A stretch of DNA of 64,000 bases from Escherichia coli (GTDB lineage: Bacteria; Pseudomonadota; Gammaproteobacteria; Enterobacterales; Enterobacteriaceae): NCBI RefSeq assembly GCF_050920415.1, contig NZ_CP169309.1. The stretch is one strand, 5' to 3'. A program made the position numbers and the translations under genes. Under the pieces are notes generated by a model, which was not told where the DNA came from, searched no databases, and was given only the letters and a program-made list of their open reading frames with translations. Shown in pieces: positions 32,070 to 50,257 of the stretch; position 1 is the stretch's first letter; every line of letters begins with the position of its first letter.

Positions 32070-32076
32070 CTTGCCT

Positions 32077-33449: not shown

Positions 33450-33453
33450 CGTC

Positions 33454-33846: not shown

Positions 33847-33868
33847 CTTTAGGGATATTCCTTCTGAG

Positions 33869-35185
33869 TTACGCGAATGCCGCCATGCTGGCTTTCATGG
33901 TGTACACCTCAACCAGCGTGTTGGTGTACTCCTCCAGATAACGGTCGTAGTTGGCGTTATAGGTATCGGTAAGCTGATCGCCTTCGTCCTGAATTTTGCT
34001 CATCTGATCGTCAATGTTCTGCTGGCGCAGGGTGATGATGCCGTTGCTGGAGTCCGTGTAGGTGTTAATCAGATCGTCCATCTGTGCCACCATGCTGTTG
34101 TCGCCAACGAAAATAGAGGTCAGACCGTCAGGATTTTTCGCCATTTCGTCGTTGAACTGGTCGGAGTCAATCTGTAAGTGGCCGTGAGAATCAAGCGTGA
34201 TGCCATAGTCAACAATCGACACCCCGTTGTAGCTGGCATGGGCGATATCATCGAGCTGGTTCGCCAGTGAGCTGAGTCCGGCATCACCCGCAAATACCCC
34301 GGCGCTGGTACTGTCATCACCGTGGGTGGTCAATGAATCAACCGTATCAATCAAGGTGTTATAGGCATCAACAAAGGTCTGTACTTTCTCCTGGCTGGCG
34401 CTGGAATCTTCGCTGATGTTAAAGGTAGTGAGATCGCTGTCAGAATCGCTGACTTCGGTAAAAGTCATGGTGACGCCGGGGATCACATCATCAAAGGTGT
34501 TGCTGCTATTGGTGATGGCGGGCCCCGTGGCACTGCCGAGATGAATAATCGCGTCCTGAGCGGAGGAAACATCCGTAGCAACGGGCGCGCTGGCGCTGTC
34601 GTTGCTGGCATCATGCCCCGTTACGCTCACCGAAAACGCGCTCTGCGCCCCGGTGCTATCCGAGGTGAGCATAATGGTGGTGGTGCCATCGGTTTTTACC
34701 AGTGCCGCTGAAACGCCGGGGTTATCGTCAGAGTCGTTAATCGCATTCACCAGCTCGCTGGCGTCGATAAAACCGTCGCCGTCACCGTTCTGATCCGCCG
34801 CCGCCAGGTCGATATCCATGGTGCTGTCGCCCATCGTCAGCTCGAAGGTGCCGGTAGCGGAAAAGGCGTCGTCGCCCATACTGAACGTGGTCTGCTGCCC
34901 CTGCGCCAGTTGCTCAACGAAAAATGAGTAGCTTCCCGCCTGTGCCTGCGAGTTAGCGGAAACGGTCGCTGAGTCATTATTGCTGGTGGCGGCAAATGTT
35001 ACCGGGCCGTCGGTATCGCTGTTCAGCGCATCGACGGCACTTTGAAAGTCGCTCAACGCCGAGCTGAGCGTATCCAGGCCGCTGCTTTCGGCATCCAGCT
35101 CCGTTTGCTTCTCCTGCAAATTTGCCGCCTGAGTGGCGACATCCGCATAAGCGATTTCCTGGGCAATAGTTCTTGGGTTAATCAT
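33869..35185 (-). CDS. lafB: Filament cap protein FliD-like (HAP2)
   Basis: 438 aa with FliD-type N- and C-terminal helical regions. Confidence 0.85.
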   Translation of the reverse strand: MINPRTIAQEIAYADVATQAANLQEKQTELDAESSGLDTLSSALSDFQSAVDALNSDTDGPVTFAATSNNDSATVSANSQAQAGSYSFFVEQLAQGQQTTFSMGDDAFSATGTFELTMGDSTMDIDLAAADQNGDGDGFIDASELVNAINDSDDNPGVSAALVKTDGTTTIMLTSDSTGAQSAFSVSVTGHDASNDSASAPVATDVSSAQDAIIHLGSATGPAITNSSNTFDDVIPGVTMTFTEVSDSDSDLTTFNISEDSSASQEKVQTFVDAYNTLIDTVDSLTTHGDDSTSAGVFAGDAGLSSLANQLDDIAHASYNGVSIVDYGITLDSHGHLQIDSDQFNDEMAKNPDGLTSIFVGDNSMVAQMDDLINTYTDSSNGIITLRQQNIDDQMSKIQDEGDQLTDTYNANYDRYLEEYTNTLVEVYTMKASMAAFA

Positions 35186-35216
35186 TGATGACTCCGGTTA
35201 ACGATGTCAGGTTATT

Positions 35217-35233
35217 GGCAAAAGGCGTGCCAA
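35217..35233 (-). promoter_or_regulatory. Sigma-54 (RpoN) promoter upstream of lafB
   Basis: Minus strand reads TTGGCACGCCTTTTGCC (TGGCAC-N5-TTGC); about 30 nt upstream of the lafB ATG, which has a GGAG RBS. Confidence 0.6.
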
Positions 35234-35367
35234 TATTTTTTATGTTAATAATCAATAATTTGAAAAATGGGCGGAAAGCGTGTTTCCGGTTCGGCGGAAA
35301 AGTGCCTGCCGCAAAAAGCACAACACCGCCCGCAGGCGGTATTGAGACTGATGACAAACGCAACACT

Positions 35368-35466
35368 GCCTGATGCGCTGCGCTTATCAGGCCTACAAGG
35401 TTTCTGCAATATATTGAATTTGCAATATTTTGTAGGCCGGATAAGGCGTTCACGCCGCATCCGGCA
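35368..35466. repeat. BIME: two inverted REP units between lafA and lafB
   Basis: gcctgatgcgctgcgcttatcaggcctac ... gtaggccggataaggcgttcacgccgcatccggca. Confidence 0.85.
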
Positions 35467-35474
35467 ATCCCGCA

Positions 35475-36389
35475 CTACTGCAGCAGGCTGGAAACCATGC
35501 TGGACATGCTGTTGGACTGTTTCAGCATGGTGATACCGGTCTGCATCAGCACCTGCTGTTTGGTCATGTTGGACGCTTCCGTCGCGTAGTCGGTATCCAT
35601 AATGTTGCCGATAGCGACTTCGGTGTTGTCCTGCATGCTGGTCAGGTTGTTGGCAGTGTCGTTCAGACGGTTAATAGACGCACCCAGCTTGGATTGGATC
35701 TGCGAAACATCATCCATCGCGGTAGAAATGCTGGTAATCATCTGGTTAGCTGAGCCAGACGCAGTCAGTTCAGTACCGCCAGACACGCCTGCGGTGCCCG
35801 TGGTGTCAGCCTGATCCGCACTAAAGGAGTTGCTGATAGCAGAAAGATCCGTCACCAGCGTGTTCAGTTGGCTTGAAATGTTCACGGTCATGGTATCGGA
35901 AGATTCCGCTCCCACCTGGAAAGTCACCGCGCTCTGGAACAGGCCGTCAGTACCGGTGTTGCTGGTGCCGGAAACACCGAACAGGTTGGTGCCGCCGTAA
36001 GTGGTGTTTTGCAGCATGTCAGACATCTGCTGGCCCAGTTCGTCGTATTCGTCCTGCATCGCCTGCAGGTCATCGTCGCTGTAGGTGCCGTTCGCTGCCT
36101 GAGTTGACAGGTCTTTCATACGACCCAGCACATCAGACATTTCGTCGAACATGCTGTCAGCGGTTTGCAGCATCGCCGTTGCATCATTAATGTTGCTCAG
36201 TGCCACCCCCATACCGCTGGACTGTGCAGTCAGACGGTTAGCAATCTGTTTGCCTGCGGCGTCATCGGCAGAAGAGTTAATCCGGTTACCTGTTGCCAGG
36301 CGTTCCATAGATGTAGACAAAGAAGAACTGCTTTTGCTGATTGCATTAACGGCGGCCATTGAGGCGTTATTGGTGTTAATAGATAACAT
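35475..36389 (-). CDS. lafA: Lateral flagellin
   Basis: Start at ATG preceded by AAGGAG; 304 aa; conserved flagellin N- and C-termini with Ser/Thr-rich centre; the 26 extra codons in the ORF track are upstream read-through. Confidence 0.9.
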   Translation of the reverse strand: MLSINTNNASMAAVNAISKSSSSLSTSMERLATGNRINSSADDAAGKQIANRLTAQSSGMGVALSNINDATAMLQTADSMFDEMSDVLGRMKDLSTQAANGTYSDDDLQAMQDEYDELGQQMSDMLQNTTYGGTNLFGVSGTSNTGTDGLFQSAVTFQVGAESSDTMTVNISSQLNTLVTDLSAISNSFSADQADTTGTAGVSGGTELTASGSANQMITSISTAMDDVSQIQSKLGASINRLNDTANNLTSMQDNTEVAIGNIMDTDYATEASNMTKQQVLMQTGITMLKQSNSMSSMVSSLLQ

Positions 36390-36874
36390 GATACTGCTCC
36401 TTGGGATTAATCGTTTTCGTTTCGATACCCTGTAAAAACGACACCTCAGGCGCAAACTTAAAATCACTATGAAAAAAATTTCGCCACGTATTATCCGATG
36501 CCACTTTTAGCTAAAAAAAGCAGAGGTTAAATTCAGATAAAAAGATTATTAGCAATATCTGCCACATGGCCAGGTATCAAAATATGTCTTTATCAATTGC
36601 TTGATATAGTTAAGATTGTCATCAATTAACGCGTTTTCTTCACAATGTACTGATGCCAAAATTTACATTGCGTTGCAAATAGTACACATTTGGCTATTGT
36701 ACCTGTCCTGTCATTTCGTTACATTCCCACGCCATATAGTGATTAAGAATAATCCTATTACCATAAAATATTAATTATCACGCAGAAAAATCATCTTCTC
36801 AGGGACGTATAAGACTGTGCTTTATGTAAAGCACTATCAGGAACCATTTATCCCTTGCTAAGGTAAACTCAACT

Positions 36875-37717
36875 ATGAGTATTATTATCAACAACTGGCG
36901 GATGGACCCGTCACTCAATGCCTTAATACATTGCGAAACGGGTGAAACACGTCGTCTCGGCGAATACCATTTTATTTTGCTGGAAACATTAGCAAAAAAT
37001 GCCGATGTGGTTTTATCGCGATCTTATTTATGTGCCGAAGTATGGAAGAACCGCATTGTCGGCGGTAACAGCCTGCCGACGGCGATCCATGCGTTGCGCG
37101 TTGCTATCGACGATGATGGCAAACAACAGAACATTATCAAAACCATCCCGAAAAAAGGTTACTTGTGCAATAAAGAGTATGTGTCTTTGCCGGAATCATC
37201 GCCTGCGGAAAAGCTGATGATTACCGACCAGGTACAGAAAACTGTGCCAGAAAAGATATCTTCGACAACACCGCCTTTACCTGGTAGAAAAAAATATAAA
37301 GAAATGATAGGGCTGGCGTTGAGCGCAGCTGTTATTTTTGTTGGCTCGACCGTGGGCTATTCACACTTGAAAAGTACACCTGACGCCCCGCAACTGGTAA
37401 AAGAGTCAATTAACAGTCCAAGAATAAAAATATTTCATTTAACTTCTGCTGGAGAAAATACTTCCGTACCGTTACTATCACAAACCCTCGCACCAGGAAA
37501 AGACAAACTCGATAATTTATTGTCAGCGCATAATATGACAATGACAACCTATTATAAATATGTTCGTAACCGACTGGAGAGTGATATTGTTCTGCGCAAC
37601 CAGTGCAATGGTAGCTGGCAATTAACCTTTAATGTGGAAGGCTGGCAGAACAGTGATATTAATAGCACGATGTATCAGAATTTAGAGAAGTTGTTAAATA
37701 CTGTGCAGAAGTGCTGA
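36875..37717 (+). CDS. lafZ: Membrane-anchored transcriptional regulator, ToxR/CadC-like winged helix plus TM and periplasmic domain
   Basis: N-terminal OmpR/PhoB-type winged-helix region, one TM helix (MIGLALSAAVIFVGSTVGY), AT-rich gene; divergent from lafA. Confidence 0.7.
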   Translation: MSIIINNWRMDPSLNALIHCETGETRRLGEYHFILLETLAKNADVVLSRSYLCAEVWKNRIVGGNSLPTAIHALRVAIDDDGKQQNIIKTIPKKGYLCNKEYVSLPESSPAEKLMITDQVQKTVPEKISSTTPPLPGRKKYKEMIGLALSAAVIFVGSTVGYSHLKSTPDAPQLVKESINSPRIKIFHLTSAGENTSVPLLSQTLAPGKDKLDNLLSAHNMTMTTYYKYVRNRLESDIVLRNQCNGSWQLTFNVEGWQNSDINSTMYQNLEKLLNTVQKC

Positions 37718-37730
37718 TGAATACGAATAT

Positions 37731-37769
37731 ATGCCGGATGCGACGCTAAACGCGTCTTATCCGGCCTAC
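37731..37769. repeat. REP element between convergent lafZ and lafW
   Basis: atgccggatgcgacgctaaacgcgtcttatccggcctac. Confidence 0.75.
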
Positions 37770-37775
37770 CGATAA

Positions 37776-38753
37776 TTACCCCAATAAATTCCTCACCGTC
37801 TGGCTGGAAATTCGCGCCTGACCGTTCACCGCCTGCAATAAAACCTGATAGTTATGATTGGCGCTGTCGAGCACACCGCCGAGATTTTCCGACGCCTGTA
37901 CCGCACTTTCTGTCTGCGGGAAGCGGGACATGCCGTCGATCAACTGGCGGGCCTTTTCCTGCTGCACAGCCATCTTCGCGCGCTGCTGATTAATGTTTTC
38001 TAACGTCTGAGAAATCCCCGCCCCGCCCTGTTGCAGGCTTTGAGCTAACCGCTCAGCCTCAGAGGGTTCGGCAAAGGTTTTTAGTGGCATAAACGCTGAT
38101 TTATCGCCATCGGTGCGCACGCTTAACGTGCGTTCAATGTCAGGCCACTGTTTTTCGGTGGTGGAGAAGCTGATGCCATCCGCTTGCTGATGCAGCTGCA
38201 CGCCTACGCGGCGCAGGGCGTTGGTCAGCCGTGTCTGGTACTGCCCGGCGTTATCATCCTCAGACAGCATCACCGCCGAAAGCTGGGTCTGCCGCCCGTC
38301 AGAAACGCTGAACATCCGCGTTCCCAGTGTGGGGTTGTTGACGAGATTCGCCAAATCCGGCGAGTGAAAGGTCACCCGCGCTTCCCCCTGCAACACCGGC
38401 TGCAACTGGCGGTCCACCGCGCCGCCGGAAAGTGCGGTGCGTTTGTCCAGCATCTGCGTGAGCGCCGTACTCTGCGCCTGCCCGCCCTTACGCAGGCTGT
38501 GACGATAATCGAGCAACTGCTGTTCCAGTTGCCCGAGATAGTGATCCGCCTGCTGCAAGGTGGTGAGCTGGTCGTTAAGCTGCACGCTGTAACGCTGCGG
38601 GCGAGTGGTAATCAGCGGCGAGGCCGGATATTCACTCGCCGTCGCCGGGAGCTTTTGCCGCACCGCCTGAGTGGGCGCAACGGTTGACGACGATACCGCA
38701 GCGCTATGCGCACCGCCGGTGGCGAGTGATGAAGATGTAAGTCCGACCTGCAT
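37776..38753 (-). CDS. lafW: Flag-2 protein of unknown function, LafW position
   Basis: 325 aa, Ser/Ala/Gln-rich; immediately downstream of lfgL in the same orientation; symbol assigned by synteny only. Confidence 0.5.
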   Translation of the reverse strand: MQVGLTSSSLATGGAHSAAVSSSTVAPTQAVRQKLPATASEYPASPLITTRPQRYSVQLNDQLTTLQQADHYLGQLEQQLLDYRHSLRKGGQAQSTALTQMLDKRTALSGGAVDRQLQPVLQGEARVTFHSPDLANLVNNPTLGTRMFSVSDGRQTQLSAVMLSEDDNAGQYQTRLTNALRRVGVQLHQQADGISFSTTEKQWPDIERTLSVRTDGDKSAFMPLKTFAEPSEAERLAQSLQQGGAGISQTLENINQQRAKMAVQQEKARQLIDGMSRFPQTESAVQASENLGGVLDSANHNYQVLLQAVNGQARISSQTVRNLLG

Positions 38754-38769
38754 ACTGTTCCTGAAAGAG

Positions 38770-39597
38770 TTAGAGAACGCTGAATAAATTCAACTCACTC
38801 ACTTTCGAGTAAGTCTTGAGGGTAGCTTCCATTGCCACTTCCAGTCCGGTAAAGGTGATCGACGCAGGGCCGTAATCGAGATCCTGCAATGAACCAATCA
38901 ACTCATCATTAGAGGTAGAGATATCGGTCTGCGCATCGCTCAGCATCGACATGGTGTTTTGTGTCTCGCCGAGCGACGCAATCGAGGCGTTGAGGTCGTC
39001 CGAGGCGGTGTCCACCACATTAACGGCGTTTTGAATATCGCTTTGTACCTGCGGATCTGCCGGGTCAACGTTAGGGTCTTGCAACTCCTGAGAGAGCGAA
39101 TTGAGCGTGTTGAGCACATCTAAATTACTTCCGAAGAAATCGCTCACCGCCACGTTGGTATCCACTTCAACGCCGTTCGACACCGTCGTCTGGCGATGGT
39201 CGCTGTTACCCTGATAGCTGTAGCTATCGGTCACGCCATCACCGTCATCGTCCAACGCCACAATCGGCGGCTGATCGTTGATGGTGCCGCCAAAGACGTA
39301 ATGCCCGTCTTCATCCTGATAGTTGAGCGCCGCCAGCAGGCTGTTGTTGACGCCATCGAGAATCGACTCCTGCTGGCTTAACCCCGCCGACGCAGAGTCA
39401 ATATTGCTTTGATACTGCTCAATCGCCGACTGCTGGCGGTTCAACTGAGTGATGCGTGTGGCGGCGATAGGATCATCCGATGGCTGCAAAATTTCCTTGC
39501 CGGTTGCCATCTGCTCGACCACGTGCGCCAGTTCGCCAGAAAGATTATTAAAACTTTGCGTCATCGAGACGTAGGTTTGTTGAGTGGTTACTCGCAT
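38770..39597 (-). CDS. lfgL: Hook-filament junction protein FlgL-like (HAP3)
   Basis: Start at internal ATG (MRVTTQQTYVSMTQS...) matching FlgL N-termini. Confidence 0.8.
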   Translation of the reverse strand: MRVTTQQTYVSMTQSFNNLSGELAHVVEQMATGKEILQPSDDPIAATRITQLNRQQSAIEQYQSNIDSASAGLSQQESILDGVNNSLLAALNYQDEDGHYVFGGTINDQPPIVALDDDGDGVTDSYSYQGNSDHRQTTVSNGVEVDTNVAVSDFFGSNLDVLNTLNSLSQELQDPNVDPADPQVQSDIQNAVNVVDTASDDLNASIASLGETQNTMSMLSDAQTDISTSNDELIGSLQDLDYGPASITFTGLEVAMEATLKTYSKVSELNLFSVL

Positions 39598-39611
39598 TTT
39601 CGCGCTCCCGC

Positions 39612-40988
39612 TTAGCTGCACATTTCCAGCACCGAATCGAAAATCTCGGCCCCGGCGGAAATGACTTTCAGATTGGCTTCATAAATTTGTTGATAGGTGA
39701 TCAGGTTCACCGCCTCTTCGTCCATGCTGACGCCGCTGACGCTGCTCTGCTGGTTTTGCGCCTCAGAATAGACATTGGACGCAGCGGTCACTTCGGTCTG
39801 GTTTTGCTGAGTGTAAATGCCGATATTGCTGATGATTGACGAGCACGCTTGCCCGACCGTCACGCTGCCGAGGTTGCCTATCTCCAACGGCTCAGTGGAG
39901 ATGTTGATCAGCGCCTGCAGGTTGTCGCTGTTGCCGCTTTCATCCGGCGAACTGGAGAACGCCAGTTCATCGGCGGTGATATCCGGGTTAACGGTCAGCG
40001 GGCCATCGGCATTACTGGCATCGTAAATAAACAGCGGCTCGCCGGGGTTACCGTTGAGATCGTAGCCCTGCGCCAGCTGGTTGTTGACCGCATCGGCAAA
40101 CTGCGACGCCATGCTGTTGATGGTGTCGGTCAGCGGCGTCAGCACGTCGTTTTGATAATCAAAAAGTGCGCCTAATGAACCGCCGGTGTCGGTGGTCATG
40201 GTCGAGGTCGTTCCGGCAAAGGTCAGTGTCATCGTTGGCGTGCCATCGGCGTTGGTTTCCAGCGCAATGGTCGAGCTTTGCTGCCCGCTCACCAGCGGCT
40301 GACCGTTTTGCAGGGTGACGTTGTAGTTGCCCTGGTCGTCGATATTGACCTGCACATCCATCATCCCGCTGAGTTCTTCCACCATCTGGTCGCGGGCATC
40401 GTACAGCGCAGAGGCGTTATCGCCGTTGGCTTCGGCCTGGGCGATTTGCTGGTTATAGCTGGCGATGCCGCTGGTGAGGGTGTTAATTTGCGACACCATC
40501 GCCTGCTGCTGGCTGATGATTTCCGTGCTTTGCGAGTCGATGTAATCGAGCGTGTTATCGATACGCAACGACAGCGCCCCGGCTTCGCTGATCACCTGCT
40601 CGCGCAGGGCAGAATCATCGGGGCTGGTGGTCGCTTCGTTGAGGGCCGCGAAAAAGTTATCGAACCCGCCGCTCAGGCTGCTGTTATCGTCGCTCAATAC
40701 CGCTTCCAGTTGCGTGAGATACCCTTGCTGGGTGTTGTAATAGCCGTAATCGCTGGCGGCATACCACACCTGATTCACCTGATACTGGTTGGAGACGCGA
40801 CGAATGCTGTCGACCTGCACACCGTTTCCGGCGCTGTTCGGCGAACCGCCGCTGGCACCGATGGTGCTGATCTCCGCCACCTGGCGGGTGTAGCCCGTGG
40901 TCATGGCGTTAGCGGTGTTTTGCGCCGTGACGTTCAGCTCCACCTGCGCCGTTGATGCGCCGCTGTAGCCGATGTTAATCATGTCCAT
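39612..40988 (-). CDS. lfgK: Hook-associated protein FlgK-like (HAP1)
   Basis: 458 aa, FlgK-type N-terminus (..TAQNTANAMTTGYTRQ..). Confidence 0.85.
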   Translation of the reverse strand: MDMINIGYSGASTAQVELNVTAQNTANAMTTGYTRQVAEISTIGASGGSPNSAGNGVQVDSIRRVSNQYQVNQVWYAASDYGYYNTQQGYLTQLEAVLSDDNSSLSGGFDNFFAALNEATTSPDDSALREQVISEAGALSLRIDNTLDYIDSQSTEIISQQQAMVSQINTLTSGIASYNQQIAQAEANGDNASALYDARDQMVEELSGMMDVQVNIDDQGNYNVTLQNGQPLVSGQQSSTIALETNADGTPTMTLTFAGTTSTMTTDTGGSLGALFDYQNDVLTPLTDTINSMASQFADAVNNQLAQGYDLNGNPGEPLFIYDASNADGPLTVNPDITADELAFSSSPDESGNSDNLQALINISTEPLEIGNLGSVTVGQACSSIISNIGIYTQQNQTEVTAASNVYSEAQNQQSSVSGVSMDEEAVNLITYQQIYEANLKVISAGAEIFDSVLEMCS

Positions 40989-41051
40989 GTTGGATCCTTA
41001 CCGGTAAATCGTGCCGGATAAAAGCGGCGTGAAGTTGGGGATTCTTAAGTG

Positions 41052-41195
41052 GGAGGGGGTGCGCGCATTGCCCCCTCACCCTAACCCTCTCCCTGAGGGA
41101 GAGGGGACCGATCGAGCACGGTATTGAACAGGGTGCCGGTTTTCTCCCTCTCCCTGTGGGAGAGGGCCGGGGTGAGGGCATCAGCGCGCACCTCC
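41052..41195. repeat. MITE-like composite palindromic repeat, copy A
   Basis: Inverted GC-rich ends (ggtgcgcgc...gcgcgcacc), arms ccctcaccc/gggtgaggg, two internal hairpins ccctctccc-tga-gggagaggg and ctctccc-tgt-gggagag; matches copies B and C. Confidence 0.7.
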
Positions 41196-41197
41196 CC

Positions 41198-41497
41198 TCA
41201 CCTATGCTTCGGCGACAACTGCTTCACAATCATCGCCGCAATCCCTATCCCGTGCTGCTGCGCCAGGGCGTTACACAACTCATCGTCATAAAATCCCTGC
41301 ATCATGCGCACCGAATCGCTGTTAAATGGGTTATCTTTCGAATCAAACAACTCGTTGGTTTTTCGCATCTCTTTGAGCATGTTGCGTAAAAAAATCGCCT
41401 CAAACTGTTCGGCGGCCTGCTTAATATCATTGGCCTGAACCTTCGGCCCCATTAACGCATCGCTGCCGTCAATCCCGCCGCTGGCGTTGACTTTCAT
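41198..41497 (-). CDS. lfgJ: FlgJ-like rod-assembly protein, rod-binding domain only
   Basis: 99 aa resembling the FlgJ N-terminal domain; no muramidase domain. Confidence 0.7.
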   Translation of the reverse strand: MKVNASGGIDGSDALMGPKVQANDIKQAAEQFEAIFLRNMLKEMRKTNELFDSKDNPFNSDSVRMMQGFYDDELCNALAQQHGIGIAAMIVKQLSPKHR

Positions 41498-42612
41498 CAG
41501 ATCACCTCCAGGTCGGCATCCAGCGCGCCCGCTTCATGCAGCGCCTGCAAAATCGACATAATGTCGTCCGGCGTTGCGCCTAAACTGTTCAGCGCATTGA
41601 CCAACGTTTTCAGGCTGCTCGATTCCGGCAAACTCACCACGCCCGGACGGGCATGATTCACCGCGATATTGCTCTGCGGCGTCACCGCCGTGCGCCCGCC
41701 AGCAAAGGCATTCGGCTGGCTGACGTTGCTGGTTTCGTTAATTGAGACGGTCAGGCTGCCGTGCGACACCGCCGCCGCGTGCAGCGCGATGCCATCGCCC
41801 ATCACCACCGTACCGGTACGCGAGTTAAACACCACGCGGGCGCGGATTTTCTCCGCCTGTACCTGCACATCATCCAGTTGCGACATAAACGCCACCCGCG
41901 CGCCGGGGCTGGTGGGCGCACGCACGGTGACGTTGGTGGAACTCTGCGCCGTGGCAATGCCGCCAAACGAGGCGTTGATCGCCGCCGCAATGTTGTTGGC
42001 GTCTTTAAACGACGGACGTTTCAGGTTAAGCGTGATGGTGTCGCCCATCTGAAAATCGCTGGGAATTTCGCGCTCCACCGTCGCGCCATTGGGGATTAAT
42101 CCGGCGGTCGGCGTATTAACCGTTACGCTCGAGCCGCTGGCCCCGGTGGCGTTCATCCCGCCCACCACCACGCTGCCCTGCGCCAGGGCATACACTTCGC
42201 CATCTGCGCCGTGCAACTGGGTCAGCAGCAAGGTGCCGCCGCGAATACTTTTGGCATCGCCAATCGACGAGACGGTGACATCAATGGTCTGCCCGCGCGA
42301 GTACATCGGCGGCAACGTGGCACTCACCGCCACCGCGGCGACGTTTTTCACCTTCGGGTCGATTTTATTTGGCAACTGCACGCCAAACTGGCGCAGCATA
42401 TTGGTGATGGTCTGGTTGGTGAATTTGACCTGGTTTTTATCGCCCGTACCGTCGAGGCCGACCACCAGGCTGTAGCCGACCAGTTGGTTTTCACGCACGC
42501 CCTGTACGTTGACCAGCGACTCCAGCGATTGCGCCAGCGCCACGCCGGGTAGCGCCAGGGTTACGGCTACCATCACCGTTTTTATCCAGTTTTGCATTGC
42601 ACTCTCCGGCAT
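41497..42612 (-). CDS. lfgI: Flagellar P-ring protein FlgI-like
   Basis: 371 aa, signal peptide, conserved [11 protein letters not shown] motif. Confidence 0.9.
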
Positions 42613-43277
42613 TAAATCGGGAACAGAGGATGGTTAAACAGCCGGGTCAGCCAGCCTGCGGCGTTGGCGTCACTTAACGCGCCACGTCCGGCATAGGAGA
42701 TACGGGCATCGGCGATCCGCTGGGAAGAAACCGAGTTGTCATTCTGGATATCGTCGGCGCGCACCAGGCCGCTTAAGCGGATGTACTCATCGCCCTGATT
42801 GAGGGTGAGCCATTTCTCGCCGCGAATTTCCAGGATGCCGTTGGGCTGCACCGCATGAACGGAAACGGTGATCTCCCCGCGCAGGCTGTTCTGCTGCTGG
42901 GAGGTGGCGCTGCCGTCAAAGTCGCGGTTGGCGTCGATGGAGCCGGAAAGGTTATTTTTGGTGTGACCAAATACCGTTGGCGCGGTAATATCGACGCTGT
43001 TGCTTTTGCCAAAGTTGGTTTTCGCCTGTTTGCTCGACTGGGTGGATTCTTCGAGGATCACTGTCAGAATATCGCCCACGCGGTAAGCCCGCCGATCGGC
43101 GGTTAGCGACCAGTTGTAGCCCGTTTCAAACAAGCCCCCGGCACGCCCGTCTGCCGGAGGCGGCGCTTCGGTTTTCGGTGGCGCAAAGTATGCGTCGTCT
43201 TTTTTGACCAGAATGGCCTGCGATTCACACCCGCTAAGCAGGGGAAGCAGCGCCACCAGCCAGAGATAATTTTTCAC
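42612..43277 (-). CDS. lfgH: Flagellar L-ring lipoprotein FlgH-like
   Basis: 221 aa, lipoprotein signal (LLSGC). Confidence 0.9.
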
Positions 43278-43326
43278 GTTCTGCCTGTTTAGTGTTGCAG
43301 GCCACGGGGGTGGCCGGTTGTTTGGT

Positions 43327-43473
43327 GGGTGCGGAGCTGTTTGTTCCCCCTCACCCTAACCCTCTCCCTCAAGGGAGAGGGGACTGACCTGTGCGCGTTG
43401 TTACATTGTGCACCGCTTTTCTCCCTCTCCCTGTGGGAGAGGGCCGGGGTGAGGGCATCAGGCCGCACCGCCC
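43327..43473. repeat. MITE-like composite palindromic repeat, copy B
   Basis: Same architecture and near-identical core as copy A; lies between lfgH and lfgG. Confidence 0.7.
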
Positions 43474-43481
43474 TTAACGCC

Positions 43482-44267
43482 TTACAGCGTCTGACTGATG
43501 TACTGCAACATATCGTCCGCCGCCGAAACCATTTTGGCGTTCATCTCGTACGCGCGTTGCACCGTAATCATCGCCACCATTTCGTTGACGATATCCACGT
43601 TCGAGCCTTCGAGCGCATTGTCCTGCAAGGTGCCAAGCCCATCTTCGCCCGGTACGCCTTCGGTCGGCTGACCGCTGGCGGCGGTTTCCAGATAGAGGTT
43701 GTCGCCCTCGGCGGAAAGCCCCGCCGGGTTGGCGAAGTTCACCAGCGTCAGTTGCCCTAACTCGGTCACGTCGCTGTCGCCGGGTAAGATAGCCGTCACC
43801 GTACCGTCCTCACCAAACGCAACATTCGTCGCCCCCGCCGGAACGTCGATTTCCGGCTGCAATGGCAAGCCCTGCGAGTTGGTTAGCACGCCGTCGGCAT
43901 TCACCTGCAAATTGCCGTCGCGGGTATAGGCGATATCGCCGTTGGCCTTTTGCACCTGCAAAAACCCCTGCCCCATAATGGCGACATTCATCGCGTTGTC
44001 GGTGGTTTCGACGTTGCCTTCGGTAAAGGTTTTCTGAGTGCCGACAATGCGCACGCCGCTACCGAATTGCAGCCCGGTCGGCATGATGTTGTTCTGGTCG
44101 AGCATCGCGCCCGGCGCTTCCTGGGTCTGGTAGAACAGATCCTGAAACATCACCCGGTCGCGCTTGAAGCCGGTGGTGTTAACGTTGGCGATGTTGTTGG
44201 CAATCGCGCTCATTTCAGCATCCTGCGCCGAGAGGCCGGTTTTGCTGATCCATAATGCTGCGTTCAT
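43482..44267 (-). CDS. lfgG: Distal rod protein FlgG-like
   Basis: 261 aa, FlgG N-terminus (MNAALWISKTGLSAQ...). Confidence 0.9.
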   Translation of the reverse strand: MNAALWISKTGLSAQDAEMSAIANNIANVNTTGFKRDRVMFQDLFYQTQEAPGAMLDQNNIMPTGLQFGSGVRIVGTQKTFTEGNVETTDNAMNVAIMGQGFLQVQKANGDIAYTRDGNLQVNADGVLTNSQGLPLQPEIDVPAGATNVAFGEDGTVTAILPGDSDVTELGQLTLVNFANPAGLSAEGDNLYLETAASGQPTEGVPGEDGLGTLQDNALEGSNVDIVNEMVAMITVQRAYEMNAKMVSAADDMLQYISQTL

Positions 44268-44293
44268 GGTGCTTTATTCCCTGATGTCTGTTA

Positions 44294-45031
44294 TCACGAG
44301 CCGCGCAATAAGCGGTTGCCCGCGTCGCTGATATCTTCGGCAGTTTTCATCATCTTGATCTGCGCTTCAAACTGGCGATTCATGGCGATGGACGACATCA
44401 TTTCGCTCACCGCCGAGACGTTGCTGCCTTCGAGAAAACCGCCGCTGACTTTGATGTTTTCATCGCGCTGGGCCGGAATGCCGTCGCTAGTCACCAGCAT
44501 CCCTTCAGGATTTTTCGCCAGGTTAGCGACAGGGATATCCACCAGCTTCAGGCGGTCGATATCCATCGTGGCGGTCACGTCGCCGTCATCGGGCGTCACC
44601 GAGAGCGTGCCGTCGCTGCCAAAAGAGGCGATGGCGTTCGGCGGCAGAATGATCGGGCCGTTATCCCCCAGCACCAGATTGCCGTCGATGGTCAGTTGCC
44701 CCTGATCGTTCTGCTGAATATTGCCGTTGCGGGTATAGACTTCGTTGCCGTTTTTATCCTGCACCGCAATGTAACCCGCCCCCTGAATCGCCACGTCCAG
44801 CGGGCGTTCGGTTTTCTCCGCCACACCCGTGCTGTCGTTCACGCCGCTGGCCCCTTCCTGCGCCATATAGCGCGTGTCGAAGCCGCCACCTTTCACCTTG
44901 TCGTTGGTCGCCATCGCCATATCGGCGCGAAAACCGTTGGTGTTGACGTTCGCCAGGTTGTTGGCGCTAATCTGCTGCTCATACAACGTCTGCGAAGCCC
45001 CGCTCAGGGCGGTATAAATCAGGCGATCCAT
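44294..45031 (-). CDS. lfgF: Proximal rod protein FlgF-like
   Basis: 245 aa with rod-protein N- and C-terminal motifs. Confidence 0.85.
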   Translation of the reverse strand: MDRLIYTALSGASQTLYEQQISANNLANVNTNGFRADMAMATNDKVKGGGFDTRYMAQEGASGVNDSTGVAEKTERPLDVAIQGAGYIAVQDKNGNEVYTRNGNIQQNDQGQLTIDGNLVLGDNGPIILPPNAIASFGSDGTLSVTPDDGDVTATMDIDRLKLVDIPVANLAKNPEGMLVTSDGIPAQRDENIKVSGGFLEGSNVSAVSEMMSSIAMNRQFEAQIKMMKTAEDISDAGNRLLRGS

Positions 45032-46233
45032 TACATTGCCTGGAACAGCGCGTCATCGAGCTGCGTGCTGGTGGCGATAACTTTGGTGTTGGCCTGATAG
45101 TTACGCTGGGCGGTCATCAGGTTAACCAGTTCGCTGGTGATATCGACGTTAGAGCTCTCAAGCGCTCCCGACGTGAGCGTGCCGCAGGTGCCGGAGCCGG
45201 GAACACCAATCAGTGGCGTGCCGGATTCCCCGGTTTGTACCCACGCGGTGCCGCTTACGGCTTGTAGGCCATCATCGTTAGGGAACGTCGCCAGCACTAC
45301 CTGCCCCTGCAACATGCGCTCGCCGTTGCTGTAGGTGGCGTAAACTTTGCCGTCGTCATCGACCTGCACACCGTTCTGAGTGGCAGAGGCGTAGCCATCG
45401 GCGGCGTTGGTGGTAACCGAGAAGTCAGAGCCGTATTGCGTACAGGTGGAGTAATCGACGGTCAAATCGATGGGCGCGGCGGCGTCGGTCTGAAACTCAA
45501 TGGTCTGCGGGGTGGTGGGCGAAGTCAGTTTTCCGGTATTCGGGTCGAAGGTTAAGGTCGTCGCCGGAACACCGGTCTGCTGCTGACCGTCGAAGGTGTA
45601 CTGCACTTCCCAGGTGTTATCGCTGGTTTTGGTGAAGTACTGGCATACCGAGTGTTCGTTACCTAATGAGTCATACACCGTGGTGGTGTAACTGTCGGTG
45701 TACGAACTGCTGTTGGTCGGATCGAACGGCACGGTAGTGCGGTCGATAGCGTCGTCGCTGGCATCGAGGTTGGCGGTAAAGGTCAGGCTGCTGCTGGCCT
45801 GCGCCGGGATATTGCCGGTTTTGATCTGGATATCCGTCACCGTACCGGTTTGCAAAGTGCCGCTGTCATCGACCGGATAGCCCTGCAAATAAGCGCCCGA
45901 GGCGTTGACGATATAGCCGTCTTTGTCCGTTTCAAACGATCCGGCGCGGGTATAAGAGATGTTGCCCGCGCTGTCGCACATCACAAAAAAGCCGTCGTCG
46001 TTAATCGCCAGATCCAGCGCATTACCGGTGGAGACCAGCGAACCGCCGCGCGAAATACTTTGCGCGGTGCCCGCCACGCTGACGCCCATTGCCTGGCTTC
46101 CGGCATACATGGCTGAAAACTGGGTAGTCATCGACTTATACCCCACCGTTCCGGCGTTAGCGATGTTGTTACTGATCCCGTCCAGCTGTTCGTTAACGGC
46201 ATTCAGCCCCGTTGCGGCAATTTCATAACTCAT
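45031..46233 (-). CDS. lfgE: Hook protein FlgE-like
   Basis: 400 aa with FlgE-type termini. Confidence 0.9.
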   Translation of the reverse strand: MSYEIAATGLNAVNEQLDGISNNIANAGTVGYKSMTTQFSAMYAGSQAMGVSVAGTAQSISRGGSLVSTGNALDLAINDDGFFVMCDSAGNISYTRAGSFETDKDGYIVNASGAYLQGYPVDDSGTLQTGTVTDIQIKTGNIPAQASSSLTFTANLDASDDAIDRTTVPFDPTNSSSYTDSYTTTVYDSLGNEHSVCQYFTKTSDNTWEVQYTFDGQQQTGVPATTLTFDPNTGKLTSPTTPQTIEFQTDAAAPIDLTVDYSTCTQYGSDFSVTTNAADGYASATQNGVQVDDDGKVYATYSNGERMLQGQVVLATFPNDDGLQAVSGTAWVQTGESGTPLIGVPGSGTCGTLTSGALESSNVDITSELVNLMTAQRNYQANTKVIATSTQLDDALFQAM

Positions 46234-46256
46234 TGTTTCTTCCTGTTAATTGATTC

Positions 46257-46970
46257 TTACGCCACATCACTGTCGGCATCGGGTACGCCAAACTGGCTAA
46301 TCATGGTGAACGGCACTTCGCCCACACCTGCAACGTTGAGCACCGGAGAGCTGCCGTCGAGCGGGATACGTACATCCTCCACTTCGCCGGAGACTTCAAT
46401 CGGTACCTCTTCTTCCCCGGTGTTGGTCACCACCGAAACGTCGTAATCACCCGGCGGGATGCCGTAATCCGCCGGATTAATCGAGAAATCAACCTGGCCT
46501 GGTCCAACCGACGAACTCCCTTCCGGGATCAGCGAGACGGTGTAGTCATCGCCCGCGGCATCGGTAAAGTGGAGTTCGGCGGTGGTACAGGCGTCGTCCA
46601 GTGTGGCGCGACCGTTAATGGTCTGGTCACTCACCTGCAAGGCGGTGGTCTGCACCATAATGTCGTCGCCCACCAGGTTGCCGAGCGCCATCACCTGAAT
46701 GTTGCTCATCAGCACCGCGTTGGTATTGGCCTGCACGCTCATCTCTTCCATCATCGCCACCTGCGCCATCGACGAAAGCTGGTCGATATATTCGGTGGCA
46801 TCGGTCGGGTCGGTCGGGTCCTGGTTTTGGATCTCGGCGACAAACAGCGTCAGAAAGGTATCAACGGGCGAGCTATCGCTGCTGCTTGTCGTGTCGCTGG
46901 CCGCCACAGTGTTGCTTTCCGCCGTGGCGGTCGGCTGCGGTGATTGCGCATTCAGCGCCAGGGTATTCAT
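46257..46970 (-). CDS. lfgD: Hook capping protein FlgD-like
   Basis: 237 aa FlgD-like. Confidence 0.8.
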   Translation of the reverse strand: MNTLALNAQSPQPTATAESNTVAASDTTSSSDSSPVDTFLTLFVAEIQNQDPTDPTDATEYIDQLSSMAQVAMMEEMSVQANTNAVLMSNIQVMALGNLVGDDIMVQTTALQVSDQTINGRATLDDACTTAELHFTDAAGDDYTVSLIPEGSSSVGPGQVDFSINPADYGIPPGDYDVSVVTNTGEEEVPIEVSGEVEDVRIPLDGSSPVLNVAGVGEVPFTMISQFGVPDADSDVA

Positions 46971-47401
46971 CAGGCTTCTCCCAGTTTCAGCAGGCTTTGC
47001 TGCATACTTTTCACGTTGTTGAGCACATCGACGTTAGTTTCAAAATCGCGCGAAGCCGACATCATGTCCGCCATCTGTTCCACCACGTTGACATCGGGAT
47101 ACCAGACATCACCGTTGGCATCCGCCAGCGGCGAATGCGGTTCATAGCGTTTCACCGCCCCGCCGGTTTGCAGCACGTCCTGCACCTGCACGCTGGCACC
47201 GTCAATGGCATGGCGATGCGTTCCCGCCAGCAAGCTGTGGTGATAGACCGCCGCAAACACCGGGCTGCGCGCTTTATACGCCTGCGCCTCGCTGCCAGCG
47301 GGCGCATTGGCATTTGCCAGGTTACTGGCAACGGTATTCAGACGTAGCGTTTGCGCCGTCATCGCCGAGCCGGAAATCTGATAGATATCAGTAAATGACA
47401 T
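46970..47401 (-). CDS. lfgC: Rod protein FlgC-like
   Basis: 143 aa, FlgC N-terminus (..ISGSAMTAQ..RLN..ASNLANANAP..). Confidence 0.9.
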   Translation of the reverse strand: MSFTDIYQISGSAMTAQTLRLNTVASNLANANAPAGSEAQAYKARSPVFAAVYHHSLLAGTHRHAIDGASVQVQDVLQTGGAVKRYEPHSPLADANGDVWYPDVNVVEQMADMMSASRDFETNVDVLNNVKSMQQSLLKLGEA

Positions 47402-47403
47402 GC

Positions 47404-47739
47404 TTATTTCCCTTCAATGGCCTCTCTGATGCCGCTGATTTGCAGATTCAGAAAGGTCAGACTGCTTTGATAATCCATACTATTTTGTGAAAACCGCGCC
47501 TGTTCGCTGTTCAGTTCCACGGTGTTACCATCTTCCGATGGCTGCATCGGTACGCGATACTGGACATCCACCGCCGCGTTATTTGCCCGTTGCATCTCCC
47601 TGGCAAAATCAATATCTTTAGCCTTGAAATTTGGCGTATCGACATTCGCCAGATTCGCAGTCAGTAGCTCGGTCCTCTCAAGACGTAACTTCACTGCCTG
47701 CGGATGTACTCCCAATGCTTGTTGAAAACTGATCCCCAT
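47404..47739 (-). CDS. lfgB: Rod protein FlgB-like
   Basis: Start at internal ATG with GGAG RBS, aligning with canonical FlgB N-termini; the longer ORF-track start would sit on the promoter. Confidence 0.85.
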   Translation of the reverse strand: MGISFQQALGVHPQAVKLRLERTELLTANLANVDTPNFKAKDIDFAREMQRANNAAVDVQYRVPMQPSEDGNTVELNSEQARFSQNSMDYQSSLTFLNLQISGIREAIEGK

Positions 47740-47776
47740 TTCTTGCGCCACTCCCGCTTCAATCCGCATACGCTAA

Positions 47777-47792
47777 GCAATCGCTGTGCCAA
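47777..47792 (-). promoter_or_regulatory. Sigma-54 (RpoN) promoter of the lfgB-L operon
   Basis: Minus strand reads TTGGCACAGCGATTGCT (TGGCAC-N5-TTGC) about 40 nt upstream of the lfgB start. Confidence 0.6.
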
Positions 47793-47820
47793 TTTTTAAG
47801 TGACTGATGAGAAAGGGTTT

Positions 47821-48558
47821 ATGAGGTTTCAATTTTGCAGGCGGAAGTTGTATTTCCTCCTGGCGCTGGCCTTACCGGGCTACGCCGCCGTCCATCCCGT
47901 GCAACATAGCGCGCGGGAACAAATCAACGCCCAGGTGCTGAATGCCGCGAGCCAGCAGATTGAATCGCTGGCGCAACAGCGGCAGTGGCATGACTATCGC
48001 TACACCTTTAAGGTCTACATTCCCTCGCAGATTGCGACCGCCGCGCCCTGCGCTACGGCCCCCGGCGTCACGCTGACGTCGCCTGCGGAAATCGCTCTCA
48101 ACCGGATGAACTTCACCGTCAGTTGCCCGCAAAGCTGGCAGATGAACGTTGCGGTGCGCCCGGATGTTCTGGTGCCGGTGGTGATGGCGAAGTCACTGGT
48201 TGCCCGCGATACGCCGCTCACGGCAAATGATGTGGAGCTGAAGCCCTACAACGTCAGCGCCCAGCGGCGGGATGTGCTGATGGATCTCAATGAAGCGATT
48301 GGTTTAAGCAGCAAACATGCCCTGCAACCAGGCAGGCCGCTTACCAAAGAAGAACTGGTTTCGCCAGTGCTGATCGAGCGCGATCAGCCGGTGATGATTG
48401 TTTACCAGAGCGCGGGGATCACCGCCTCGATGCCCGGCGTGGCGCTGAAAAATGGTCGCAAAGGGGAAATGGTGAAAGTACGTAACGCCAGCAGCCAGCG
48501 GGTCATTAGCGCGATGGTGGCCGAAAGCGGCGTGGTGACAACGGTAAGCGCGGAGTAA
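47821..48558 (+). CDS. lfgA: P-ring assembly chaperone FlgA-like
   Basis: Signal peptide and SAF-type C-terminal domain; divergent from lfgB; start at second ATG. Confidence 0.75.
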   Translation: MRFQFCRRKLYFLLALALPGYAAVHPVQHSAREQINAQVLNAASQQIESLAQQRQWHDYRYTFKVYIPSQIATAAPCATAPGVTLTSPAEIALNRMNFTVSCPQSWQMNVAVRPDVLVPVVMAKSLVARDTPLTANDVELKPYNVSAQRRDVLMDLNEAIGLSSKHALQPGRPLTKEELVSPVLIERDQPVMIVYQSAGITASMPGVALKNGRKGEMVKVRNASSQRVISAMVAESGVVTTVSAE

Positions 48559-48746
48559 TTTGCTTCGATACCGCGTAGCATATGTATGACTATCTCCCAA
48601 TATTATGACTTTCTGACAAATTTCATCGTGTCTTTTGGATAATTATTGAGCACTCAATCACTACTGTTTAAATATCCAGATGGTAACTATTTCATCTGGG
48701 TCAAATGAGTGATACTGTATCACCAATAAGACCTATGGGGGATGCT

Positions 48747-50171: not shown

Positions 50172-50194
50172 TAATAATTAATTTTCACTATTGT

Positions 50195-50217
50195 GAGGCC
50201 TTTTTATTAAAGGCCTC
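50195..50217. terminator. Bidirectional hairpin terminator between the convergent M and R genes
   Basis: gaggccttt-ttatt-aaaggcctc flanked by A/T runs. Confidence 0.5.
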
Positions 50218-50257
50218 TAAATATATAATCATGAGTTTTTACAAGTATGTTTTTATA

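What the first reader, a model, noticed from the sequence alone, without database searches (positions are those of the whole stretch)
41198..41497. FlgJ homolog consists of the rod-binding domain only
The lfgJ product is 99 aa and lacks the C-terminal muramidase domain of E. coli/Salmonella FlgJ. Rod penetration of peptidoglycan would then need a separately encoded lytic enzyme, which is not identifiable in this window.
Basis: partly seen in the sequence, partly recalled or inferred. Interest (0 to 1): 0.3.

Follow-up and report, generated by a model that had tools for sequence, protein, structure and literature searches.

The report
Short rod-cap protein LfgJ, no hydrolase
The second (Flag-2) flagellar gene cluster of this E. 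coli encodes a genuine, conserved 99-residue FlgJ that has only the rod-capping domain and no cell-wall-cutting domain. This is a known kind of arrangement and is already annotated, so the finding is correct but ordinary.

Summary
Window 41198-41497 (-) is an intact 99-aa ORF between lfgI and lfgK in an E. coli Flag-2 locus. It matches only Pfam Rod-binding (PF10135), and only positions 20-91 of the 294-position dual-domain FlgJ model.

It is not a frameshift or truncation artefact:
- The next 209 bp are a palindromic repeat insertion followed by lfgK.
- Strain PCN033 lacks the insertion and still has a 99-aa gene.
- tblastn with glucosaminidase domains finds nothing anywhere in the window.
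- All close enterobacterial homologues are about 91-134 aa.
- dN/dS within E. coli is about 0.09.

No peptidoglycan-lytic enzyme is encoded in the window or in the rest of the locus.

Comparison shows three layouts among Flag-2-type clusters:
- Fused: Plesiomonas lateral FlgJ, 328 aa.
- Split: Vogesella, with a standalone glucosaminidase gene after flgN.
- Rod-binding only, with no lytic gene in the cluster: Escherichia, Buttiauxella, Tatumella.

The most likely mechanism is that LfgJ caps and scaffolds the rod while an enzyme encoded outside the locus opens the wall. This follows precedents in Rhodobacter (SltF) and Borrelia. Which enzyme does this is unknown. Single-domain FlgJ is an established class and RefSeq already names this protein "rod-binding protein". 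Interest is low.

The parts
41198..41497 (-). lfgJ coding sequence, 99 aa including the stop codon. This is a single-domain FlgJ (rod-binding protein).
   Evidence: ORF list. Pfam PF10135 is the only match. PGAP names it 'rod-binding protein' WP_000867177.1.
41219..41374 (-). Region encoding the Rod-binding domain, residues 42-93.
   Evidence: Pfam match covers residues 42-93 and profile positions 1-51 of 51. The AF2 model places helices at 22-51, 61-80 and 86-94.
41441..41497 (-). Codons 1-19, a predicted disordered N-terminus. It is inferred to carry the flagellar type III export signal.
   Evidence: pLDDT is below 50 for residues 1-19. The export-signal role is inferred from established knowledge of flagellar substrates.
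41505..41509 (-). GGAGG Shine-Dalgarno for lfgJ, lying inside the 3' end of lfgI. The lfgI stop and lfgJ start overlap as ATGA at 41495-41499.
   Evidence: Read directly from the sequence.
41497..42612 (-). lfgI (P-ring protein), the upstream neighbour, translationally coupled to lfgJ.
39612..40988 (-). lfgK (hook-associated protein 1), the downstream neighbour.
41064..41200 (.). GC-rich palindromic repeat insertion of about 135 bp in the lfgJ-lfgK spacer. It abuts the lfgJ stop codon, and the last codon differs from PCN033 (AGG Arg here, AAA Lys there).
   Evidence: Alignment with PCN033, which has a 76-bp spacer. Repeat analysis.
43330..43480 (.). Second copy of the same repeat element, in the lfgH-lfgG spacer.
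   Evidence: Direct-repeat families D1, D2 and D8, 91-94% identical.
47777..47791 (-). Sigma-54-type promoter motif TGGCAC-N5-TTGC upstream of lfgB. It is the likely promoter of the lfgB-to-lfgJ operon.
   Evidence: Read directly from the sequence. A sigma-54 activator gene (lafK) lies in the locus. Function is inferred.
29064..64000 (.). The part of the Flag-2 locus that lies in the window, from lafU to lfiE. It contains no peptidoglycan-lytic gene.
   Evidence: PGAP annotation. Pfam and NCBIfam scans of the unassigned ORFs. tblastn.

Best explanation
**What it is**
- lfgJ encodes a genuine, selectively maintained single-domain FlgJ.
- It has a short disordered N-terminus followed by a three-helix rod-binding domain.
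- It is the last gene of the lfgB-to-lfgJ operon of the Flag-2 (lateral-type) flagellar system.

**How it most likely works (inferred from Flag-1 FlgJ and single-domain FlgJs elsewhere)**
- It is exported through the Flag-2 type III apparatus.
- It sits on the tip of the growing rod as a cap or scaffold for rod-subunit polymerisation.
- It has no enzymatic activity of its own.
- The hole in the peptidoglycan is made by an enzyme encoded outside the Flag-2 locus. The most likely candidate is one of the housekeeping, Sec-exported lytic transglycosylases, which LfgJ or the rod proteins may recruit locally. This is how Rhodobacter FlgJ works with SltF and Borrelia FlgJ with BB0259.

**Shown here:** domain content, integrity, conservation, and absence of a lytic gene in the locus.
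**Inferred:** export, the cap function, and the identity and recruitment of the lytic partner.
For: - **Domain content:**
- **Integrity:** PCN033, which lacks the repeat insertion, still has a 99-aa gene. No hydrolase remnant occurs in any frame.
- **Conservation of the short form:** the close homologues from Citrobacter, Leclercia, Scandinavium, Dryocola, Pseudescherichia and others are mostly 91-134 aa and carry PF10135 only. A minority of the 104 hits are shorter fragments or partial sequences. Buttiauxella (132 aa), Tatumella (124 aa) and Enterobacter ludwigii (117 aa) are also short.
- **Prevalence:** 1272 of 5426 complete E. coli genomes carry the region.
- **Purifying selection:** dN/dS is 0.085 between two E. 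coli alleles, from 10 synonymous and 4 non-synonymous differences.
- **Synteny:** the flgI-flgJ-flgK order is identical in five other clusters.
- **No lytic gene in any enterobacterial cluster examined:**
- **Literature, single-domain FlgJ with a separate enzyme:** R. sphaeroides FlgJ with Sec-exported SltF (PMC7277832). B. burgdorferi FlgJ with the SLT-domain protein BB0259 (PMC8517470).
- **Literature, flag-2 without flag-1:** Tatumella ptyseos, Budvicia and Pragia have flag-2 but no flag-1, yet are described as motile (PMC6993521). Tatumella LfgJ is rod-binding only, in a compact cluster with no lytic gene. This argues that such a system can work without the Flag-1 FlgJ enzyme.
- **Model:** disordered residues 1-19 followed by three helices.
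Against: - No partner enzyme is identified, and no interaction or export was tested.
- Flag-2 flagella were not expressed in E. coli EC958 under laboratory conditions (PMC4637896). Function in E. coli is therefore unproven.
- I did not verify that the Tatumella genome lacks every GH73 or FlgJ-type enzyme.
- The AF2 model has only moderate confidence (pLDDT 71), and no solved structure exists for this domain.
- From my own recollection, not checked here: Salmonella FlgJ mutants lacking the hydrolase half retain weak motility (Hirano et al. 2001). That would mean a dedicated enzyme may not be strictly required.
Confidence: 0.6

Rival explanations
1. The glucosaminidase domain of the resident Flag-1 FlgJ (313 aa, dual-domain) supplies the wall-cutting activity in trans for Flag-2 rods. 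The Flag-2 copy could therefore lose its own domain.
For: - A near-identical genome encodes an intact Flag-1 flgJ with PF01832.
- Among the Flag-2-type clusters examined here, the ones lacking a hydrolase domain come from enterobacterial genera, and most enterobacterial strains with flag-2 also have functional flag-1 loci (PMC6993521).
- Plesiomonas, whose other flagellar system is polar-type, keeps a fused lateral FlgJ.
Against: - Flag-1 FlgJ would have to be exported by, or localise to, Flag-2 basal bodies. Its rod-binding domain is only 35% identical to LfgJ.
- Tatumella ptyseos, Budvicia and Pragia are reported to lack flag-1 yet be motile with flag-2 (PMC6993521), and Tatumella LfgJ is rod-binding only.
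Confidence: 0.15
2. No enzyme is needed. The Flag-2 rod passes through existing or transient gaps in the peptidoglycan created by normal turnover, and LfgJ is only a cap.
For: - No lytic gene is present in any enterobacterial Flag-2 cluster examined.
- From my recollection, unverified here: hydrolase-deficient Salmonella FlgJ supports weak motility.
Against: - Related clusters keep a glucosaminidase, either fused (Plesiomonas) or as a separate in-cluster gene (Vogesella).
- Of 137 representative homologues, 53 carry a fused Glucosaminidase, SLT or SLT_2 domain.
- Loss of the enzyme blocks flagellar completion in Borrelia (PMC8517470).
Confidence: 0.15
3. The lytic partner is one of the unassigned proteins inside the Flag-2 locus, with a fold too diverged for sequence profiles. 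Candidates are LafW (37776-38753) and the ORFs at 52441-53409, 56368-57189 and 57158-57721.
For: Several ORFs have no confident family assignment.
Against: - LafW orthologues occur equally in clusters that have a fused (Plesiomonas) or split (Vogesella) glucosaminidase, so LafW is not a substitute.
- The ORF at 52441-53409 resembles a flagellin lysine methylase.
- The ORFs at 56-58 kb lie in a low-GC cargo island. The compact Tatumella cluster has no gene between lfiJ and lfgN, where these ORFs lie in E. coli.
- None of these ORFs has any lytic-domain hit.
Confidence: 0.05
4. The short gene is an artefact or pseudogene: a truncated dual-domain flgJ produced by a frameshift, a sequencing error or the repeat insertion.
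For: A repeat element abuts the stop codon, and the last codon differs from the PCN033 allele.
Against: - PCN033 lacks the insertion and still has a 99-aa gene followed 76 bp later by lfgK.
- The short form is conserved across genera.
- dN/dS is 0.085.
- No glucosaminidase remnant occurs in any frame.
- There is no room for a domain of about 150 aa before lfgK.
Confidence: 0.02

Closest known systems
Flag-1 FlgJ of E. coli/Salmonella (TIGR02541, flagellar assembly peptidoglycan hydrolase FlgJ)
   Same: - The N-terminal rod-binding domain is homologous: 35% identity over LfgJ residues 22-98 against FlgJ residues 30-102.
- The gene sits in the same position between the P-ring gene and the HAP1 gene.
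   Different: - LfgJ lacks the linker and the C-terminal GH73 glucosaminidase domain, PF01832 at residues 160-295 of FlgJ.
- It scores 68.5 bits against a cutoff of 193 for the family model.
Rhodobacter sphaeroides single-domain FlgJ with the flagellar lytic transglycosylase SltF
   Same: FlgJ has the scaffold domain only, and the enzyme is a separate polypeptide (PMC7277832).
   Different: In Rhodobacter the partner SltF is encoded inside the flagellar flgG operon. The E. coli Flag-2 locus has no SLT or other lytic gene.
Borrelia burgdorferi single-domain FlgJ with BB0259 (LTase-Bb)
   Same: A single-domain FlgJ works with a separately encoded SLT-domain enzyme that binds FlgJ (PMC8517470).
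   Different: Borrelia is a spirochaete with periplasmic flagella. There, FlgJ is reported to act in hook and filament formation rather than rod formation. No partner is identified in E. coli.
Plesiomonas shigelloides lateral FlgJ (FlgJ_L, 328 aa)
   Same: It sits in a Flag-2-type cluster with the same gene order. That system is experimentally functional (PMC4481668).
   Different: It is a fused Rod-binding plus Glucosaminidase protein. It is about 36% identical to LfgJ over the shared domain.
Split FlgJ of Vogesella oryzae and related betaproteobacteria
   Same: A 121-aa rod-binding-only protein sits at the flgJ position of a Flag-2-like cluster.
   Different: The cluster also encodes a standalone 232-aa glucosaminidase directly after flgN (PF01832, E=1e-29). 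It belongs to a large family of proteins of about 230-250 aa. E. coli has no counterpart in the window or locus.

Membership tests
Single-domain FlgJ / Rod-binding protein (Pfam PF10135) | Match to the Rod-binding profile above Pfam's gathering score | tested here: met
   53.8 bits against a cutoff of 25.1, full profile coverage 1-51 of 51.
Single-domain FlgJ / Rod-binding protein (Pfam PF10135) | No peptidoglycan-hydrolase domain in the polypeptide or in frame downstream | tested here: met
   The 99-aa length is the same in PCN033, which lacks the repeat insertion.
Single-domain FlgJ / Rod-binding protein (Pfam PF10135) | Encoded at the flgJ position (between flgI and flgK) of a flagellar gene cluster | tested here: met
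   The same synteny is seen in L003, L006, L008, L009 and L011.
Single-domain FlgJ / Rod-binding protein (Pfam PF10135) | Exported by the flagellar type III system and required as a rod cap or scaffold | not testable with these tools
   Only indirect support: a disordered N-terminus and no Sec signal.
Dual-domain FlgJ (TIGR02541, flagellar assembly peptidoglycan hydrolase) | C-terminal GH73 glucosaminidase domain (PF01832) | tested here: not met
   No PF01832 hit. Only model positions 20-91 of 294 are matched.
Dual-domain FlgJ (TIGR02541, flagellar assembly peptidoglycan hydrolase) | Whole-protein score at or above the curated cutoff | tested here: not met
   68.5 bits against a cutoff of 193.
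FlgJ plus in-cluster lytic transglycosylase system (SltF type) | A Sec-exported SLT-domain gene inside the flagellar cluster | tested here: not met
   No SLT or other lytic domain in the window's locus genes or in the remainder of the locus.
Split FlgJ (rod-binding gene plus standalone flagellar glucosaminidase gene, Vogesella type) | A standalone PF01832 gene in the cluster (after flgN) | tested here: not met
   tblastn of the Vogesella protein against the window, L001 and L003 gave no hit better than E=6. The position after lfgN is occupied by flagellin-modification cargo genes.
Flag-2 (lateral-type) flagellar locus of Enterobacterales | Gene content and order lafU..lafA..lfgL-lfgB, lfgA, lfgMN, lfiJ-lfiE, lying between dinB and yafL | tested here: met
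   PGAP annotation of a 100%-identical record. It agrees with the description in PMC6993521.

The most novel reading that the evidence does not exclude
Enterobacterial Flag-2 flagella, unlike their Plesiomonas (fused) and Vogesella (split) relatives, have dispensed with any dedicated flagellar wall-cutting enzyme. Instead, LfgJ or the Lfg rod proteins would recruit a housekeeping lytic transglycosylase. This would make Flag-2, especially in flag-1-less motile Tatumella or Budvicia, a tractable gammaproteobacterial model for how a general autolysin is targeted to a nascent flagellum.
Probability: 0.4. Interest if true: 0.4.

Novelty: already known. Interest (0 to 1): 0.2.

Why it matters
The practical value is modest.
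- **Annotation:** the protein should not be called a 'peptidoglycan hydrolase'. Several NCBIfam models that match it carry that name even though they are only about 97-140 positions long.
- **An open question:** which enzyme opens the wall for Flag-2 rods is unknown.
- **A possible route to test it:** related clusters fall into three layouts (fused, split, absent). Together with the reported motility of flag-1-less taxa that carry a rod-binding-only LfgJ, this offers a natural comparative series for studying how flagellar wall penetration is outsourced.

None of this overturns current understanding.

Tried and rejected
- **Frameshift or missed domain.** I translated the downstream sequence. 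I ran tblastn with the C-terminal halves of three dual-domain relatives and with the Vogesella standalone glucosaminidase. I compared with PCN033, which lacks the repeat insertion. Rejected.
- **Hidden lytic gene in the locus.** Pfam and NCBIfam scans of all unassigned ORFs found no lytic domain. A PDB sequence search of the 273-aa ORF found nothing. LafW was rejected as a substitute on its phyletic pattern.
- **Solved-structure homologue of the rod-binding domain.** A sequence search, a profile search (which found only FlgJ C-terminal domains) and Foldseek on the AF2 model (no hit with E<5) all found none.
- **Direction of evolution.** A neighbour-joining tree on the 80-residue domain was too noisy to say whether the short form arose by loss. 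I do not rely on it.
- **A correction to my own work.** I first took P0121 (322 aa) to be the Plesiomonas lateral FlgJ. It is the polar one. The lateral protein is P0224 (328 aa).
- **Rfam scan of the repeat-bearing spacers.** No family matched.
- **Papers not held.** Ren et al. 2005 and Canals et al. 2006 are not in the library. I could not check whether they already state that LfgJ lacks the hydrolase domain.
- **P0204.** This 4064-aa protein had 14 apparent matches but no Rod-binding Pfam hit. The matches are probably compositional.

Full report
**Source and context**

The window is E. coli chromosome. Two parts of it were compared with strain MFDS1022581 (NZ_CP169399.1), and both are 100% identical: the lfgK-lfgH region and the first 16.5 kb. 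The window lacks a prophage of about 62 kb that this strain carries at tRNA-Thr.

From about 29.06 kb to its end the window carries most of the Flag-2 (lateral-type) flagellar locus. The gene order is:
- lafU, motA, a sigma-28-type factor, fliL, fliK, fliS, fliD and lafA;
- a winged-helix regulator and LafW;
- lfgL down to lfgB, then lfgA;
- an inserted restriction-modification pair;
- lfgM and lfgN, followed by flagellin-modification cargo genes;
- lfiJ down to lfiE.

The rest of the locus lies just beyond the window: lafK, lfiMNPQR and lfhBA. The region is present in 1272 of 5426 complete E. coli genomes. That agrees with the roughly one quarter of strains reported to carry Flag-2 (PMC6993521).

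**The observation**

- It is 99 aa with an ATG start.
- The start overlaps the lfgI stop codon as ATGA.
- A GGAGG Shine-Dalgarno precedes it.

Its domain content is limited to the rod-binding part of FlgJ.
- Its only Pfam domain is Rod-binding PF10135, at residues 42-93.
- Against NCBI's dual-domain FlgJ model TIGR02541 it matches only positions 20-91 of 294, and it scores far below the cutoff.
- Residues 22-98 align at 35% identity to residues 30-102 of the 313-aa Flag-1 FlgJ of the near-identical genome.
- That Flag-1 protein continues into a Glucosaminidase domain at residues 160-295.
- RefSeq already names the Flag-2 protein 'rod-binding protein'.

**Is it a truncation artefact?**

No, for the following reasons.
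- The frame closes at once.
- The 209-bp spacer before lfgK consists of a GC-rich palindromic repeat insertion of about 135 bp.
- E. coli PCN033 lacks that insertion. Its spacer is only 76 bp, and it still encodes a 99-aa protein. In the window the last codon reads AGG (Arg), where PCN033 has AAA (Lys).
- tblastn with the hydrolase halves of three dual-domain relatives, and with a standalone flagellar glucosaminidase, found no remnant in any frame of the window.
- Close homologues from Citrobacter, Leclercia, Scandinavium, Dryocola, Pseudescherichia, Buttiauxella, Tatumella and Enterobacter are about 91-134 aa with PF10135 only, apart from shorter fragments and partial sequences.
- dN/dS between two E. 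coli alleles is 0.085, from 10 synonymous and 4 non-synonymous differences.

The gene is therefore intact and under purifying selection.

**Is a lytic enzyme nearby?**

No peptidoglycan-lytic gene is present in the window or in the rest of the locus.
- PGAP annotation lists none.
- Pfam and NCBIfam scans of every unassigned ORF gave no lytic domain.
- Some cargo ORFs do have other assignments: a GT2 glycosyltransferase, a cytidylyltransferase, and a weak match to a FliB-like flagellin lysine methylase.
- LafW is the conserved unknown protein after lfgL. Its orthologues occur in clusters that have their own glucosaminidase, so it is not a substitute.

**Comparison with other Flag-2 and lateral-type clusters**

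A HMMER scan of 1.84 billion representative proteins found 1353 relatives. I scanned 137 sequences against Pfam: LfgJ itself and 136 of the best hits. Of these, 47 carry a fused Glucosaminidase domain, 5 a fused SLT domain and 1 an SLT_2 domain. The rest have the rod-binding domain only.

Within clusters that share Flag-2 gene order I found three layouts.

| Layout | Example | Evidence |
|---|---|---|
| Fused | Plesiomonas shigelloides lateral FlgJ, 328 aa, Rod-binding plus Glucosaminidase. This system is experimentally functional. |; PMC4481668, |
| Split | Vogesella oryzae: a 121-aa rod-binding protein at the flgJ position, plus a standalone 232-aa glucosaminidase gene directly after flgN. 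| |
| Rod-binding only, no lytic gene in the cluster | Escherichia, an unnamed enterobacterial metagenome contig, Tatumella, Buttiauxella. | |

The Vogesella standalone glucosaminidase belongs to a large family of proteins of about 230-250 aa. The named members come from betaproteobacterial genera such as Massilia, Jeongeupia and Pseudogulbenkiania.

Buttiauxella and Tatumella LfgJ carry 25-35-residue tails that are rich in Pro, Thr and Gly. These could be remnants of a linker. The 80-residue domain is too short to resolve the direction of change.

**Mechanism**

*Shown here:* LfgJ is a conserved protein with the rod-binding domain only. The AF2 model gives a disordered N-terminus (residues 1-19) and three helices, with pLDDT 71. 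No solved structure of this domain exists.

*Inferred:*
- LfgJ is exported by the Flag-2 type III apparatus and acts as the rod cap or scaffold. This is the role assigned to the N-terminal half of Flag-1 FlgJ and to single-domain FlgJs (PMC7277832; PMC8517470).
- The wall is opened by an enzyme encoded elsewhere.

The precedents are Rhodobacter SltF and Borrelia BB0259, both of which bind FlgJ. De Maayer et al. report that Tatumella ptyseos, Budvicia and Pragia have flag-2 without flag-1 and are nevertheless described as motile. Tatumella LfgJ is rod-binding only. This weighs against dependence on the Flag-1 FlgJ enzyme and towards housekeeping autolysins, or towards no dedicated enzyme at all.

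Two cautions apply. Flag-2 was not expressed in E. coli EC958 under laboratory conditions (PMC4637896). I also did not verify the Tatumella genome myself.

A TGGCAC-N5-TTGC motif upstream of lfgB fits control by LafK and sigma-54. It gives a handle for searching for co-regulated enzymes.

**Novelty and verdict**

Single-domain FlgJ proteins, and their pairing with separate lytic enzymes, are an established class (Nambu et al. 2006 and later work, as cited in PMC8517470). This particular protein is already annotated correctly in RefSeq.

The finding is accurate and its refutation test fails, but it is ordinary. The only mildly new element is the fused, split and absent series among Flag-2-type clusters, together with the open question of which enzyme serves enterobacterial Flag-2.

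Noticed in passing
window 48705-51463: A low-GC pair (about 37-38% GC) is inserted between lfgA and lfgM inside the Flag-2 locus: a DNA cytosine methyltransferase and a type II restriction endonuclease. Only 28 of 5426 complete E. coli genomes carry it.
   Followed up: partly
window 41064-41200, 43330-43480, and a core motif at 53442-53462: Copies of a GC-rich palindromic repeat element with core CCCTCTCCC-N3-GGGAGAGGG flanked by CCCTCACCC/GGGTGAGGG. One copy is inserted next to the lfgJ stop codon, where the last codon differs from PCN033 (Arg here, Lys there). It is absent from PCN033 at this site. Similar sequence probably explains why the 3.7-kb query hit 4544 genomes, although only 1272 of those have the locus. 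No Rfam family matches.
   Followed up: partly
window 56368-57721: A low-GC island (about 37-38% GC) holds two ORFs. The 273-aa ORF has an ...SHGG... then ...YGCR... His-then-Cys pattern and a weak sub-threshold DUF4347 match, so it may be a cysteine peptidase. The overlapping 187-aa ORF has a hydrophobic N-terminus. Neither has a confident family or a PDB match.
   Followed up: partly
window 52441-53409: A 322-aa ORF after lfgN has a sub-threshold match to flagellin lysine-N-methylase FliB (NF038110, E=2.6e-11, 43.6 bits against a cutoff of 85). This fits the flagellin-modification cargo of variable region 1.
   Followed up: no
window 41198-41497 (annotation issue): Four NCBIfam models (NF009349-NF009352, 97-140 positions long) are named 'peptidoglycan hydrolase', but they appear to describe rod-binding-only proteins. 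LfgJ matches them below their cutoffs. The name looks misleading for proteins that have no hydrolase domain.
   Followed up: no
window 47777-47791 (-): A good sigma-54 promoter motif, TGGCAC-AGCGA-TTGC, lies in the lfgA/lfgB divergent spacer, upstream of lfgB.
   Followed up: no
window 41028-41047 (-): A weak sigma-28-like motif, TAAG-N15-GCCGCTTT, lies about 40 nt upstream of the lfgK start, on the lfgK side of the repeat insertion. It suggests that lfgKL has its own late promoter, as flgKL does in Flag-1.
   Followed up: no
L002 9623-16108 (outside the window, beyond lfhA): Core K-12 genes with cell-wall roles flank the far end of the Flag-2 locus: yafL (C40/NlpC-P60 peptidase), dpaA/yafK (peptidoglycan meso-diaminopimelic acid protein amidase) and ivy (lysozyme inhibitor). 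A hicAB toxin-antitoxin pair lies next to lfhA. Nothing links them to Flag-2.
   Followed up: no
window about 16500-16800, compared with L004: The 100%-identical reference strain MFDS1022581 carries a prophage of about 62 kb at tRNA-Thr, next to proA. The window lacks it.
   Followed up: partly
L006 2460-3158: Vogesella oryzae encodes a standalone FlgJ-C-type glucosaminidase (232 aa) directly after flgN in a Flag-2-like cluster. Its roughly 90-residue N-terminal region has no assigned domain. Proteins like it form a family of thousands of sequences, and the named members come from betaproteobacterial genera.
   Followed up: partly
L009 10001-10399 and L008 10001-10375: Buttiauxella (132 aa) and Tatumella (124 aa) LfgJ carry 25-35-residue C-terminal tails rich in Pro, Thr and Gly that E. 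coli lacks. They may be remnants of the inter-domain linker of a dual-domain ancestor.
   Followed up: no
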